NCBI GenBank assembly: GCA_951406725.2
Contig: OX597830.1
Span: forward strand, 50,964,001-51,028,000
Direction: 5' to 3'
DNA: 64,000 nucleotides
Origin: Octopus vulgaris
Taxonomy: Eukaryota
Shown here: piece after piece, positions 36,891-40,569 of the stretch
Position numbering within the stretch: position 1 is the stretch's first letter
Layout of the letters: every line of letters begins with the position of its first letter
Program-made: the position numbers and the translations under genes
The notes under the pieces: model-generated
Told to the model about the DNA's origin: nothing
The model's database searches: none
The model's input: the letters and a program-made list of their open reading frames with translations, nothing else

Positions 36891-37577
36891 GTTTCCTTGT
36901 TTTTTTTTGTTTTTTATGCAATTGCTTTAGTTGTTGTTTAACCCCAAGTCCGCTATCATCGAGAAGATCGATGACCAAAGGTGGTCCAAACTCCAGTCAT
37001 TATCTTTTATTGAGAAAAAGAAAAGATAAACAATTAATTCAGTAATGAGTTTTAAGTAATTAGATGGAATTTGATAAGTTTATAATTAAGAAGGCAGGTT
37101 TTTGTTTTGCTCCAGGTTATTCTTGATCGAACAGATATCGAAGGTTAGAAGTATTTCAGCATGATTGATTTACCAGTATATTTTAATGACAATTACACCA
37201 TCATTGTTGTCTGTCCGTGTTTGATCCGGCAAAACGTGAGGAAAATTTGACTGCAATTTGCAGGTTGAGGGACAACGAAGACGTTTCAGGAACCAAACGT
37301 ATCACAGAAAGCTATAAATGTCAGAGTATTCTAGATAAGGGATATTCATAAATAATTTTAAAGCATTATTTACATTATTAGCATTGAACGGATATGTTTC
37401 CTCATCTAGTTTGTTCTTACCACAACATTGCGGCTGATTTACTCTCCAGCCTTCATCAGGTGTCTAGGTGAAAGTGTGAAATCAACACTCTGTTCTCATT
37501 TCTAAGGTATTTTTTGATGTTGTTATTATTATTATTATTATTATTATTATTATTATTATTATTATTATTATTATTAT

Positions 37578-37695
37578 CATTTCTTCAAGTTTTCTTCCGT
37601 TTCTCGCCTAGTGTTTTCCGTACACCTAGGTCAGAGAAGCTCATTGTATGTATTTCCAGATTACACACGCATATTCACAGGTAGAATATTAAGTA
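37578..37695 (-). mobile_element. Short insert within (ATT)n, probably the 3' UTR of an R4/Dong-type LINE
   Basis: Unique ~120 bp with (ATT)n on both sides; loose resemblance to the 3' UTRs at 25000-25078 and 39020-39100. Confidence 0.45.
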
Positions 37696-37942
37696 TTATT
37701 ATTATTATTATTATTATTATTATTATTATTATTATTATTATTATTAGTACTCTTATCATTTATTCAAAGTATTATTCGGAATCTTGGGGTTAGCAGCCCG
37801 CGCTCTTAACCACTACGCTATAAGCCCGGGGCAGTGCCTTAAGTAATAATAATAATAATAATAATAATAATAATAATAATAATAATAATAATAATAATAA
37901 TAATAATAATAATAATAAGAAGAAGAAGAAGAAGAAGAAGAA

Positions 37943-39100
37943 GAAGGTGGTAGAGGCCTTATACAGCTGGAAAACTACTATAAAATAACCACCATAGGAC
38001 TGCAAAAATATCTACTTCAGAAGGAAGGAAAACTGATCCAGATAGCGGCAAAACACGAGCAAAACAAAAAACTGTTCTCAGTATTTAAGGAAGCTGACAA
38101 ATACAAACAAGAAATCATACCACCTAATAAACATGAAGAAGAAGAAGAAGAAGATGAAGAAACAACAAAAGCTATAAAACAAATGAAATCCAAACTAAAA
38201 ACAGAACAGCAACGAACCATGATAAAACGATGGCAAGAAAAGCCCCTTCATGGTAAATACTGCACTAAACTAAACGCAAAAGAAATAGACAAAGAAAAAT
38301 CCCAGCAATGGTTGAGAAGCTCAGGACTCAAAGCAGAAACAGAGGGATTTTTAATTGCAGCACAAGACCAAAGCCTCCCCACCAAAAATTACCAAAAACA
38401 TGTAATGAAAAGAAATATTACAAGTAACTGCAGAATATGTGGAGATGGACAAGAAACAATAAATCATATTATCTCTAGCTGCCCAGTCCTGGCTAAGAAG
38501 GAATATATTCACAGACATGACAGAGTTGGAACCTACATACATTGGAAGCTATGCCAACATTATGGAATAACAACAGAAAAAAGATGGTATAGGCACACAC
38601 CAGAAAAGGTCACAGAAAACGAGAAAGCAACCATACTCTGGGATATGCCGATACACACAGATAGAGAAATTAAGGCCAACAGACCAGATATAGTTGTCAG
38701 AGATCATGAAGAAAAAAATGCTTTTTAATTGATGTATCAATACCGGCAGATGACAACGTGTCTCTAAAAGAAATGGAGAAACTCTCAAAATACAAAGACC
38801 TGGAAATAGAGGTAACTAGAATGTGGAATCTGAAAACAGAAACAATTCCTATCATAGTAGGTGCATTAGGCATGATAAAAAAATATTCAGACAAATACAT
38901 AACAAAAACACCAGGACTTACAAACACATATAACATACAGAAAATTGCACTACTAGGCACTGCCCACATCCTACGCAGAACACTTTCCATACAATAACCA
39001 TCAGAGCATCACAACAAATCACAGCACATACCCAAGGCACACAGAGCTGCGCTCGGTAGTGAAGTGAAAGCACGCTATAAAAATAAAAATAAAACTACTG
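37943..39100 (+). mobile_element. Young 5'-truncated R4/Dong-clade non-LTR retrotransposon (CCHC + RLE)
   Basis: EGGRGL, KPLHGKY, WLRSSGLKAETEGFLIAAQDQ, CRICGDGQETINHIISSC, RHDRV, NRPDIVV; one frameshift in an A-run near 38717; LIDVSIP, EKLSKYKDL, LLGTAHILRR* (38997); AATAAA and (AAT)n tail. Confidence 0.95.
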
Positions 39101-40569
39101 AATAATAATAATAATAATAACATAAAAATACCTTAGGAATGAGAACCCAGGGTTGGGTTCAAAATTCCACCAGGACACCTGGTGACGGCTGGAAAATAAA
39201 CCAGCCGAAACGTTGTAGTAACAACAAACAAGACGAGGATACATATCCGTCCAATGCAAATAATGGATATAACGTTTAAAATTCCTCATCTCTAAAATAT
39301 AGAACAGCAAACTTAAAGCGTTTTATTACACAGTACTAAAAGAAACCTGTGCATCTGTTGTCTTTCTATTCGGATCTAAATAATTTTAATCATTACGAGT
39401 TGATTAGTCTTAAATACAGAAATTTTGCGGAGAAGGACTGCCGATTAAATCAATAATAGTACCTTGCTGTTACTTCGTTTATTGATCGCAAAGCCATGAA
39501 AAGCAAACATGATTTAGGCAGCACTTGAACTCAGAATGTTGAAGAATCATAACTAAATACTACAAGACCCTTTGTTCGACTGTGACGATTTTTCTAACCT
39601 AACGCCCACTTATATGCTGTTGAATATACTCTGAAGAATAGTTTGTGTATTTTTCCATCTGTTCTAAACGATATTTTCGTGATTGTCTTTCGAGAATCTC
39701 TCTAACTGCATATCCTTAAATTCCACAGAAATCTTTTAAATATTGTTATTGAATCAAAACTATGTAGTAGAGAAAAGAAAATCAATATGTGAATAAGAAA
39801 TGATACCAATTCCTTTATGAAAATATCTTCTTCAGAATCTTCCTATGGCGTGTTTGTGCAGAACAATTTAACCTTCTACAATCACTGGAAAATGTTTAAT
39901 TTAAAATCAGAATTACTCCCAGCAAACTAAACAAATAAATATAGAAGTAGGATACATAAATCTGAAAAAAGAAAACATACAAGCGAAATTGATAATCATA
40001 TTTTATGTAAGTTATTTTAAGTTAATTGTGTTTTATCGTTCGCATTGGTGGCATTTAAATGAAATTCGAGCTGTCATGCAAAGTCAGATACAGGTTAATA
40101 AAGCAGACTGTTAGCTTTGTTAATTTCACAATTTAAATGAGATTTCTTTTTTGTTTTTCAGCAAAGTGAAGTATTGATTTGCTATATAAGCGCATGAACA
40201 TTTAGATTTATAGCTGTGTGCTGACCAGACATGAGATTTTTATTACCCCAAGAGAATTTACAGCGTATTTCATTTCGAAATTTTACTTCCGGGGATCGAA
40301 ACGATGTTGAAGACTTTCTAATCGTTTACGAAGGGGAGTGTGGTGTTCACTGTTTTGATTACAATGTGAAAATAAAATAATCAAATCACGAGAAACCGCA
40401 AGAACTCAAGTATAATGATTTATTAAATTAGTGAAGGTCTGTAGAATTGGCCCAAGGCCAAGCCACAGAACTTCACAGGTGAAGTACTGTCAGTTTTATC
40501 GACTTCTTTCCAGAGCTTTATTAGTATTTATTTACTGAACTCGATAAAATAATATAAATTATTTTTTTC

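What the first reader, a model, noticed from the sequence alone, without database searches (positions are those of the whole stretch)
37328..39305. Second copy confirms the palindromic architecture, with a reciprocal deletion and a hammerhead-like motif in each arm
Seen: the left arm (minus strand) has tail, (ATT)n and head (37777-37826, loop CTGCTAA, tRNA-Ser(GCU)-like by eye). The centre GCCCGGGGC matches GCCCGTGGGC in copy 1. The right arm jumps to CAGTGCCTTAAG-TAAT (compare CAGTGACCTGAATAAT), so it has lost its head, then runs (AAT)n and tail to ...ATATAGAAC. Stem II GGCTG/CAGCC is kept in both arms (37421-37464, 39174-39217) while the loops differ. Copy 1 lost most of the left arm and copy 2 the right head. 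Inference: the ancestral unit is a full inverted dimer that decays by palindrome-driven deletion.
Basis: partly seen in the sequence, partly recalled or inferred. Interest (0 to 1): 0.75.

Follow-up and report, generated by a model that had tools for sequence, protein, structure and literature searches.

The report
Mirror-image SINE pair, Penelope-style insertion
This stretch holds an old mirror-image double copy of a short jumping element with a tRNA-like front and a worn hammerhead-like tail; across the genome such doubles sit inside a single target duplication, so they are made in one insertion, likely by Penelope-type enzymes and not by an ordinary LINE.

Summary
37320-39308 is a head-to-head inverted pair of a short non-coding retroposon: tRNA-like head, (AAT)n, a tail of about 160 nt, and an optional 32-nt 3' extension. 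The right arm is interrupted by a 5'-truncated (TAA)n-tailed LINE. 26920-27367 is a second such pair.

Genome-wide, 38 of 58 sampled young copies are such pairs. Pairs are flanked by one target-site duplication: an exact match of 7 nt or more in 21 of 31, against 3.7% in cross-locus controls. In 41 of 41 pairs with both outer ends visible, exactly one end carries the extension.

The incomplete arm is not decay of a full palindrome. There is no age trend, and in 16 pairs each arm holds a part that the other lacks. So arms are unequal from birth and were not copied from each other.

Inverted 5'-truncated copy, one-sided 30-40 bp tail, junction palindromes and variable target duplications are the published footprint of Penelope-like elements (PLEs). 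Intact family members also fit the PLE "minimal hammerhead" descriptor, although Rfam models do not score them and the window's copies are mutated.

The best reading is a PLE-mobilised SINE. No PLE with a matching 3' end was found in the 50 PLE loci sampled.

The parts
37320..37365 (-). Copy 2, left arm: outer 3' extension-like end (degenerate, with a small insertion and a small deletion)
   Evidence: Global alignment of the two arms. TTTAAAATT and ATCTAGAATA match the right-arm extension.
37357..37520 (-). Copy 2, left arm: tail, including the worn hammerhead-like motif at 37421-37464 (CTGATGA..GGCTG/CAGCC..GCAAT)
   Evidence: Inverted repeat I1, 158 nt, 81%. It is 83% identical to the right-arm tail and 78% to the copy-1 tail.
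37520..37746 (-). Copy 2, left arm: internal (ATT)n microsatellite, split by an unrelated 116-bp insert at 37578-37693
   Evidence: Sequence. The insert has no other match among 192 loci held.
37776..37827 (-). Copy 2, left arm: tRNA-like head (A-box-like TAGCGTAGTGG; the 3' part with the B box is lost)
   Evidence: 88% identical to copy-1 head positions 3-54. No ARAGORN or Rfam tRNA call.
37824..37848 (.). Copy 2: centre GCCCGGGGC, then the stump of the right arm's head (CAGTGCCTTAAGTAAT)
   Evidence: Sequence. Compare GCCCGTGGGC and CAGTGACCTGAATAAT in copy 1.
37846..37945 (+). Copy 2, right arm: (AAT)n followed by (AAG)n
   Evidence: Sequence.
37946..39107 (+). Secondary insertion: 5'-truncated non-LTR retrotransposon ending ..AAACTACTGAATAATAAT, sitting in the SINE's (AAT)n in the same orientation
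   Evidence: Open frame 37919-38728 with a zf-RVT match, E 4.4e-6. The same 3' end, at 92-99% identity, lies in L024, L025, L126 and L149.
39108..39265 (+). Copy 2, right arm: tail, including the worn hammerhead-like motif at 39174-39217 (CTGGTGA..GGCTGG/CCAGCC..GAAAC)
39266..39308 (+). Copy 2, right arm: 3' extension (..TTCCTCATCTCTAAAATATAGAACAGCA), whose TCCTCATCT pairs with AGACGAGGA upstream
   Evidence: Alignment to the young long tail. Hairpin fold of the family tail, z -2.9.
26911..26919 (.). Copy 1: left target-site duplication ATTGTTATG
   Evidence: Read. It matches 27368-27376 at 8 of 9 positions.
26920..27006 (-). Copy 1, left arm: 3' extension, tail positions 127-160 and the first 15 nt of head (the 'long' end, internally truncated)
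   Evidence: tail 127-160 matches 26992-26959 at 94%. Sequence.
27007..27367 (+). Copy 1, right arm: complete head, (AAT)n at 27076-27204, and a tail that stops in the loop (the 'short' end)
   Evidence: Relatives are 92-95% identical.
27368..27376 (.). Copy 1: right target-site duplication ATTTTTATG
   Evidence: Read.

Best explanation
The region is a head-to-head inverted pair of a tRNA-headed, (AAT)n-containing SINE whose relatives sit as such pairs inside one target-site duplication; it is likely mobilised by the enzymes of Penelope-like elements (PLEs), and the two arms are predicted to be reverse-transcribed separately from the two nicked target strands.

Shown:
- The element has a pol III-type head, an internal (AAT)n, and a tail of about 160 nt with a 9-bp 3' hairpin.
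- The 3' end takes two alternative forms. The 'long' form is a sharp end at ..GAACTGTA, 32 nt beyond the hairpin loop. The 'short' form is a variable end inside the loop, at GTAAATAATG.
- About two thirds of copies are inverted pairs with the tails facing outward.
- One target-site duplication (TSD) of roughly 6-14 bp flanks the whole pair.
- Exactly one outer end of each pair is long.
- The inner ends are variably 5'-truncated, often with a short palindrome or a few filler bases at the junction.

Inferred:
- A PLE endonuclease makes a staggered break.
- One target 3'-OH starts cDNA at the very 3' end of the SINE RNA, which gives the long arm.
- The other 3'-OH anneals by 1-4 nt to the A/U-rich loop upstream of the extension, possibly on the same RNA, which gives the short arm.
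- Either cDNA may stop early.
- The two cDNAs are joined in the middle by template jumping or end joining, and the gaps are filled, giving the TSD.

In the window, copy 1 fits this fully (long truncated arm, short complete arm, 9-bp TSD). Copy 2 is an old member (arms 81-83% alike) that later received a (TAA)n-targeting LINE in its microsatellite.
For: Architecture:
- 18 of 29 tail-selected loci have an inverted partner and 0 of 29 a direct one.
- 38 of 58 young loci are composites.
- An older subfamily has the same layout.

Single event: an exact flank match of 7 nt or more abuts both outer ends in 21 of 31 composites, against 34 of 928 cross-locus controls. For 8 nt or more the counts are 12 of 31 against 5 of 928.

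One-sided extension:
- All 41 head-to-head pairs with both outer ends visible are long plus short.
- Unpaired ends run 12 long to 16 short. By my arithmetic, independence would give about 49% discordant pairs, so 30 of 30 young pairs has a probability of about 5e-10.

Arms are not copies of each other: the short arm reaches further 5' in 16 composites and the long arm in 15.

PLE footprint in print:
- An inverted 5'-truncated copy at the 5' end, and a 30-40 bp tail at only one end (PMC8557442, passages).
- A 31-bp tail on one inverted pLTR (PLE pseudo-LTR), TSDs of 8-10 bp, and palindromes at the inverted junction (PMC3846280, passages).

Hammerhead (HHR):
- Intact family tails fit a minimal type-I hammerhead descriptor. 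Helix I is GACAC/GUGUU, then CUGAUGA, helix II GGCUGG/UCAGCC, then GAAAC-GU-U.
- The descriptor scored 36 hits in SINE tails and 10 in Rfam-supported hammerhead loci. It scored 2 elsewhere in 663 kb and 0 in three shuffles.
- Minimal hammerheads are a PLE hallmark (PMC4209133, passages).

PLEs in this genome: they are abundant, with 6136 GIY-YIG candidates and RT plus C-terminal GIY-YIG frames up to 781 aa.
Against: - No PLE with a 3' end like the SINE tail was found. A profile of the tail gave no match at E up to 10 in 30 PLE loci or in 20 further PLE 3' regions. That is 50 loci out of more than 6000 candidates.
- Rfam hammerhead models do not score the motif, even in a 301-nt search at E up to 10.
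- The motif has an extra A between A9 and helix II, and no loop 3.
- The window's own three motif copies fail the descriptor.
- The family shows no direct partial tandems, which are usual for PLEs (0 of 29).
- Copy 2 has extension-like sequence at both ends and no recognisable TSD, so for this copy the single-event origin is by analogy only.
- L101 is a long-plus-long pair with an inverted duplication of its flank, so other routes exist.
- Distances between arms (0.080 within a locus, 0.083 between loci) cannot tell one template from two.
Confidence: 0.6

Rival explanations
1. First reader's model. Every insertion starts as a full, symmetric inverted dimer, and the missing parts were lost later through palindrome-driven (hairpin or cruciform) deletion.
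For: - Near-complete palindromes exist (L026, L094, L102, L104, L106).
- Breakpoints lie at the centre.
- Long palindromes are known to be unstable (general knowledge).
- Copy 2 has extension-like sequence at both ends.
Against: - The outer ends are asymmetric in 41 of 41 pairs. Central deletion cannot create that.
- There is no relation between partner-arm length and divergence (rho -0.04, p 0.81, n 38). Single copies are no older than pairs.
- Truncated partners are common in copies only about 4-5% from the family majority.
Confidence: 0.12
2. Fold-back (self-primed) copying. One cDNA is made, its 3' end snaps back on itself, and the second arm is a copy of the first.
For: - Short palindromes sit at the junction: 15 nt in copy 1, and 17-30 nt in L005, L002, L107 and L101.
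- Self-priming was proposed for PLEs (PMC3846280, passage).
- L101 has both extensions and an inverted copy of its flank, as fold-back predicts.
Against: - In 16 composites the more complete arm lacks the extension that the truncated arm carries. Neither arm could then be templated by the other.
- Outer ends differ in 41 of 41 pairs, and flanks form direct TSDs, not inverted copies.
- Arms of one locus share no more private variants than arms of different loci (0.89 against 0.63 shared).
Confidence: 0.1
3. The same double-priming chemistry, but driven by an ordinary LINE reverse transcriptase (a stringent-type partner recognising the 3' hairpin) and not by a PLE.
For: - No PLE with a matching tail was found in 50 loci.
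- The tail has a 3' hairpin and short tandem units (GTAAATAAT)n, as in many LINE-dependent SINEs (recalled).
- LINEs are abundant in published octopus genomes (PMC13282606, passages).
Against: - In the papers read here, systematic inverted 5'-truncated copies with a one-sided tail of about 31 bp are described only for PLEs.
- L1 twin priming (recalled) inverts part of one copy and does not duplicate the 3' end.
- The tail carries a PLE-type minimal hammerhead.
- The (TAA)n-tailed LINE in the window shares no sequence with the tail, and the SINE's targets are not (TAA)n.
Confidence: 0.15
4. A DNA-level element: a foldback transposon or MITE whose terminal inverted repeats happen to derive from a SINE. 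Alternatively, two independent insertions of a SINE that targets its own 5' end.
For: Long inverted arms with a TSD look superficially like a MITE.
Against: - TSD length varies from about 6 to 14 bp.
- Single copies have their own TSD (L021, 10 bp).
- Arms are unequal and variably truncated.
- The head carries pol III-type boxes.
- One TSD spans both arms, which rules out two hits.
Confidence: 0.03

Closest known systems
Insertion units of endonuclease-bearing Penelope-like elements (Penelope/Poseidon, Neptune, Naiad; Pen2a_Av of Adineta vaga)
   Same: - An inverted 5'-truncated copy abuts the 5' end.
- A tail of about 31-40 bp is present at only one end.
- There are palindromes at the inverted junction.
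- TSDs are about 8-10 bp or variable.
- A hammerhead motif lies in the terminal repeat.
- The element is associated with trinucleotide microsatellites.
Sources: PMC8557442 and PMC3846280, passages.
   Different: - There is no ORF.
- The element has a tRNA-like pol III head and an internal (AAT)n.
- There are no direct partial tandems (0 of 29).
- No sequence similarity to the 50 PLE loci sampled in this genome.
SMalpha SINE-like retroposons of Schistosoma (Ferbeyre et al. 1998, as cited in PMC8490949, passages)
   Same: A short non-coding SINE-like element that carries a type-I hammerhead of the kind also found in PLE terminal repeats.
   Different: - The SMalpha ribozyme is reported as active. 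Here the motif is atypical (an extra A, no loop 3), untested, and mutated in the window's copies.
- An inverted-pair insertion layout is not mentioned in the passages I read.
Animal non-LTR retrozymes (bioRxiv 10.64898/2026.07.22.740005; abstract and passages)
   Same: Non-autonomous, hammerhead-bearing sequences proposed to use PLE enzymes.
   Different: Retrozymes are tandem arrays thought to move through circular RNA. This element is dispersed, carries a pol III-type head, and inserts as inverted pairs.
L1 twin priming (recalled, not read here)
   Same: Both 3'-OH ends of the staggered target break would prime reverse transcription.
   Different: Twin priming inverts the 5' part of a single copy. 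Here both arms carry the element's 3' end, so the tail is present twice.
Ordinary tRNA-derived, LINE-dependent SINEs
   Same: A-box-like and B-box-like head, small size, thousands of copies, TSDs.
   Different: Such SINEs insert as single copies with one defined 3' end. No partner with a matching tail has been identified here.

Membership tests
Non-autonomous element mobilised by Penelope-like elements | An inverted 5'-truncated copy adjoining the 5' end, inside the same TSD | tested here: met
   38 of 58 young loci are composites. TSD of 7 nt or more in 21 of 31, against 3.7% in controls. Copy 1 has a TSD matching at 8 of 9 positions.
Non-autonomous element mobilised by Penelope-like elements | A 30-40 bp 'tail' extension at only one end of the insertion unit | tested here: met
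   A 32-nt extension sits on exactly one outer end in 41 of 41 pairs. Copy 1 fits. Copy 2 looks long at both ends.
Non-autonomous element mobilised by Penelope-like elements | 3' end homologous to the terminal repeat of an autonomous PLE in the same genome | tested here: inconclusive
   No nhmmer or blastn match in 30 plus 20 PLE loci. More than 6000 GIY-YIG candidates were left unsampled.
Non-autonomous element mobilised by Penelope-like elements | Autonomous EN+ PLEs present in the genome | tested here: met
   6136 PF01541 candidates. RT plus C-terminal GIY-YIG frames up to 781 aa.
Hammerhead ribozyme (type I, minimal PLE type) | Core CUGANGA..GAAA with helices I and II and a U-H cleavage site | tested here: met
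   My own descriptor scored 36 SINE-tail hits and 10 Rfam-supported hammerhead loci. It scored 2 hits elsewhere in 663 kb and 0 in three shuffles. The match needs one extra A after A9. The window's copies fail it.
Hammerhead ribozyme (type I, minimal PLE type) | Recognition by the curated covariance models (RF00163 and relatives) | tested here: not met
   No hammerhead hit at E up to 10 in 14 kb of the window, in 10 loci, or in 301 nt of L020. The same genome has 22 RF00163 hits elsewhere, 8 of them over the gathering score.
Hammerhead ribozyme (type I, minimal PLE type) | Self-cleavage | not testable with these tools
   Needs in vitro transcription of monomer and dimer constructs.
tRNA-derived SINE | Internal pol III promoter (A and B boxes) | tested here: met
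   TGGCGTAGTGG and GAGTTCGATTCC lie in the head. The box consensus is recalled, and the match is by eye only.
tRNA-derived SINE | Head recognisable as a tRNA | tested here: not met
   ARAGORN finds 0 genes in the window. There is no Rfam tRNA hit. 'tRNA-Ser(GCU)' is unsupported.
tRNA-derived SINE | Short, non-coding, high copy number, TSD-flanked single copies | tested here: met
   1326, 2197 and 3561 first-look candidates for three queries, all lower bounds. The single copy L021 has a 10-bp TSD.

The most novel reading that the evidence does not exclude
A tRNA-promoter SINE family parasitises Penelope-like elements. Its thousands of short insertions obey a strict rule of one sharp 3' end plus one loop-primed end. 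This would show that PLE integration uses both nicked target strands as primers, at two different sites of the template RNA. Because the element is born as an inverted repeat, it would also be a built-in source of the long double-stranded RNAs behind the exceptional A-to-I hyper-editing reported for octopus.
Probability: 0.35. Interest if true: 0.8.

Novelty: new variant of a known kind. Interest (0 to 1): 0.6.

Why it matters
How Penelope-like elements integrate is an open question. The papers read here call their tandem/inverted structures and one-sided tail the product of 'still undefined features' of the transposition cycle (PMC8557442, passage).

A 300-bp SINE that leaves the same footprint thousands of times is a natural data set for that question. 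The present sample already gives two constraints:
- Exactly one extension per insertion (41 of 41).
- Arms that cannot be copies of each other (16 composites).

A SINE that depends on a PLE and not on a LINE would also widen the known SINE partnerships. My searches found no such pairing in print. The terms were octopus/SINE/Penelope; Penelope-like/hammerhead/SINE/inverted; SINEs/Penelope/tRNA-derived/'mobilized by'; and SINE/Penelope/head-to-head/retrotransposon.

An element born as an inverted repeat makes hairpin RNA wherever it sits in a transcript. Octopus was reported to have an exceptionally high fraction of loci able to form long, nearly perfect dsRNA, and the strongest hyper-editing signal. 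Its repeats were not analysed in that paper (PMC5625713, passages).

The link to editing is my inference. That the genome is an octopus is also inferred, from its 2.8 Gb size, about 30 chromosome-size contigs and repeat content.

Tried and rejected
- Rfam scans of the window region, of 10 relatives and of one 301-nt copy gave only low-complexity miRNA-like noise, with no hammerhead or tRNA.
- ARAGORN found nothing.
- Search for the autonomous partner. The tail (blastn) and tail profiles (nhmmer) were run against 30 GIY-YIG loci, 22 RF00163 loci and 20 further PLE 3' regions. The only hit was an incidental, internally deleted SINE copy in L061.
- The sequence upstream of 33 old-subfamily tails is always (AAT)n plus head, or another (TAA)n-tailed element, never coding sequence.
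- Arm-to-arm against cross-locus divergence and shared private variants were uninformative on one template against two.
- A second SINE family meant as a negative control turned out to form direct tandem arrays and to be very dense. It is a poor control, so I used the family's own inverted-against-direct count instead.
- My first TSD script had an indexing bug and was redone.
- Flanks of copy 1 and copy 2 were checked for inverted duplication. None was found.
- No sequencing reads could be obtained. Expression, RNA ends, editing and empty sites therefore stay untested.
- Notes of other sessions repeat the PLE reading for other windows. I do not count them as evidence.
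Full report
WHAT IS THERE

Reading 37100-39500 and 26700-27600 shows the same short element four times, in two mirror-image pairs.

The element has four parts:
- A head of about 70 nt with A-box-like and B-box-like motifs (TGGCGTAGTGG, GAGTTCGATTCC).
- An (AAT)n run of very variable length.
- A tail of about 160 nt.
- In some copies, a further 32 nt ending ..ATATAGAACTGTA.

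In copy 2 the two tails are 158 nt long and 81% complementary (37357-37514 and 39124-39281). The left arm keeps a head (37776-37827, 88% identical to the head of copy 1). The right arm keeps only the last dozen bases of its head.

The right arm's microsatellite has received a 5'-truncated non-LTR retrotransposon at 37946-39107. It has an open frame with a zf-RVT match and a 3' end ..CTGAATAATAAT.

Copy 1 (26920-27367) has a complete right arm. Its left arm is reduced to the 32-nt extension, tail positions 127-160 and 15 nt of head.

Two labels do not hold up under models. ARAGORN and Rfam see no tRNA in the head, and Rfam sees no hammerhead in the tail. This is true here, in ten relatives and in a 301-nt search at E up to 10.

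THE FAMILY

The window lies in a 2.8-Gb assembly with about 30 chromosome-size contigs. Three queries gave first-look candidate counts that are all lower bounds:
- Tail of copy 1: 1326 candidates.
- Head of copy 1: 2197 candidates.
- Tail of copy 2: 3561 candidates.

I took 29 loci other than the window for each query.
- Among the tail-selected loci, 18 of 29 hold a second copy within 1.5 kb in inverted orientation and 0 of 29 in direct orientation.
- With head, tail and extension annotated, 38 of the 58 young-family loci are head-to-head composites.
- Only two tail-to-tail neighbours were seen, 362 and 1138 nt apart.
- The older subfamily, to which copy 2 belongs, has the same layout.

ONE INSERTION EVENT

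I took the bases just outside the sharp ..GAACTGTA end and looked for them next to the other arm's outer end.

| Exact match length | Composites | Cross-locus pairings |
|---|---|---|
| 7 nt or more | 21 of 31 | 34 of 928 |
| 8 nt or more | 12 of 31 | 5 of 928 |
| 9 nt or more | 8 of 31 | 2 of 928 |

Examples are GGAATTTCTTT (L008), GTCTTGAAATCT (L094), TTTACATGTTGA (L104) and AGTGCTCAGC (L099).

Copy 1 has ATTGTTATG / ATTTTTATG directly outside its two arms. Single copies have their own duplication (L021, 10 bp).

That test fails, so the pair is laid down as a unit.

THE ONE-SIDED EXTENSION

The outer ends come in two forms.
- The 'long' form ends sharply at ..GAACTGTA.
- The 'short' form ends 32-45 nt earlier, at variable points within GTAAATAATG(TAAATAATG). 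It often shares 1-4 nt with the target.

The extension's TCCTCATCT pairs with AGATGAGGA upstream, so short ends lie in the loop of a 9-bp hairpin (fold z -2.9).

In all 41 head-to-head pairs whose two outer ends are visible, one end is long and the other short. That is 14 and 16 pairs in the two young samples and 11 in the old one. No pair is long/long or short/short.

Unpaired ends in the young samples run 12 long to 16 short. By my arithmetic, independent ends would be discordant only about half the time.

L101 is the one long/long case seen by eye. It differs in kind, because its flank is duplicated in inverted orientation.

AGAINST DECAY AND AGAINST SIMPLE FOLD-BACK

- The partner arm's length is unrelated to divergence from the family majority (rho -0.04, p 0.81, n 38). 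Single copies are no more diverged than pairs (0.046 against 0.047).
- The short arm is the more complete one in 16 composites, the long arm in 15, and they are equal in 3.
- In those 16, the complete arm has a head that the truncated arm lacks, and the truncated arm has an extension that the complete arm lacks. Neither can have been copied from the other. Copy 1 of the window belongs to this class.
- Arms of one locus differ as much as arms of different loci (0.080 against 0.083) and share no excess of private variants (0.89 against 0.63). This excludes gene conversion, but it does not tell one template RNA from two.

THE HAMMERHEAD-LIKE MOTIF

In intact family members the tail reads, in order:
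- helix I strand GACAC
- CUGAUGA
- an extra A
- helix II, GGCUGG-loop-UCAGCC
- GAAAC, GU, U
- helix I strand GUGUU

The palindrome ACGU could form helix III between two molecules. This is the layout of the 'minimal' type-I hammerheads described for PLE terminal repeats (PMC4209133, passages).

- 36 in SINE tails.
- 10 in loci that Rfam's RF00163 had already picked out of this genome.
- 2 elsewhere.
- 0 in three shuffles of everything.

So the motif is not chance, and it resembles the genome's genuine PLE-type hammerheads.

Three points count against an active ribozyme:
- It carries an extra A in the core. I recall that such an insertion is tolerated in one viroid hammerhead, but I did not check this.
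- It has no loop 3.
- It is not scored by the curated models.

The three copies in the window are all damaged: CUGGUGA in one, GCAAU in the second, and a broken helix II in copy 1. Both subfamilies keep the motif in their majority sequence. The whole tail is equally conserved between them, so that adds little.

COMPARISON WITH THE LITERATURE

- Craig et al. 2021 (PMC8557442, passages) describe PLE insertions with an inverted 5'-truncated copy next to the 5' end. [quoted passage not shown]
- Arkhipova et al. 2013 (PMC3846280, passages) describe a 31-bp tail on one of the inverted terminal repeats, TSDs of 8-10 bp, and palindromes at the inverted junction. They also describe trans-mobilisation of foreign sequence flanked by terminal repeats.
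- All of these features are met here.

The missing piece is sequence homology. The tail profile finds nothing in 50 PLE loci. PLE dependence is therefore an inference from the footprint and the ribozyme type.

I found no paper that describes a tRNA-headed SINE with this footprint. For the octopus repeat papers PMC13282606 and PMC8967140 I read passages only, and I did not open their supplements.

Notes from other sessions of this scan reach the same reading for other windows. I reached mine before reading them, and they are not independent evidence.

COPY 2 ITSELF

Copy 2 is old and atypical.
- Its arms are 81-83% alike, and its relatives are 83-89% identical to it.
- Both outer ends align with the extension.
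- No TSD is recognisable.
- Its flanks are not inverted copies of each other.

Its right arm is best read as a 5'-truncated arm that abuts the full 5' end of the left arm, as in the rest of the family. It need not be an arm that 'lost its head'. Later deletion cannot be excluded for this copy.

LIKELY MECHANISM (INFERRED)

1. A staggered break is made in the target.
2. One 3'-OH copies the SINE RNA from its exact 3' end.
3. The other 3'-OH anneals in the A/U-rich hairpin loop upstream of the extension.
4. Either cDNA stops early.
5. The two cDNAs are joined in the middle.

Two priming sites on one RNA would explain why an insertion never has two ends of the same form.

LIMITS

- The samples are the best-scoring 29 loci per query, not random draws.
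- Boundaries of short ends are fuzzy.
- Arm annotation rests on blastn with copies from the window as queries.
- No RNA or population data could be obtained.

Noticed in passing
window 37946-39107; also L024, L025, L126, L149 (3' ends): A young LINE family (3' ends 92-99% identical) ends in ..AAACTACTGAATAATAAT. Where I read the surrounding sequence (the window, L024, L025), it sits inside the SINE's own (AAT)n in the same orientation. The frame shows a CCHC motif and, by eye, RHD / PD..D..K motifs like a restriction-like endonuclease. This suggests a (TAA)n-targeting R4/Dong-type element (the class is recalled, not tested).
   Followed up: partly
L023, L146, L149, L157, L161 (upstream of the SINE tail): A second retroelement 3' end..GCACTGCTCTC(T/C)CACTCA followed by (ATA)n, recurs directly upstream of the SINE's microsatellite. 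It is probably another (TAA)n-targeting element.
   Followed up: no
L113-L142 (for example L133 1323-1834, L115 462-1161): The SINE-like repeat used as a control (..TTCTGAGTTCAAATTCCGCCGAGGTCGACTTTGCC..) forms direct head-to-tail arrays with a period of about 184 bp in 18 of 29 loci. That is a satellite-like or retrozyme-like habit quite unlike the inverted pairs.
   Followed up: no
L101 1380-1840: A long/long palindrome whose flanking 51 nt are duplicated in inverted orientation. It is the only case seen that looks like true fold-back copying or a DNA-level inverted duplication.
   Followed up: partly
L034 about 2377; L177 759; L179 749; L189 2137: One PLE family carries a hammerhead-like CTGAAGATTGCAT..ATGCATGAAA motif. 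In L034 it lies about 0.6 kb downstream of the end of its GIY-YIG frame; the other three lie within the regions fetched next to GIY-YIG matches. Other genuine type-I hammerheads (GTACCTGAAGAGACCC..GGGTCGAAAC..GTCGTAC) occur dispersed.
   Followed up: no
window 33000-36000: Long (TA)n/(TG)n-rich low-complexity tracts give many spurious miRNA-family matches in Rfam.
   Followed up: no
window 37578-37693: A 116-bp insert splits the left arm's (ATT)n. It has no other copy among the loci held, and its origin is unknown.
   Followed up: partly
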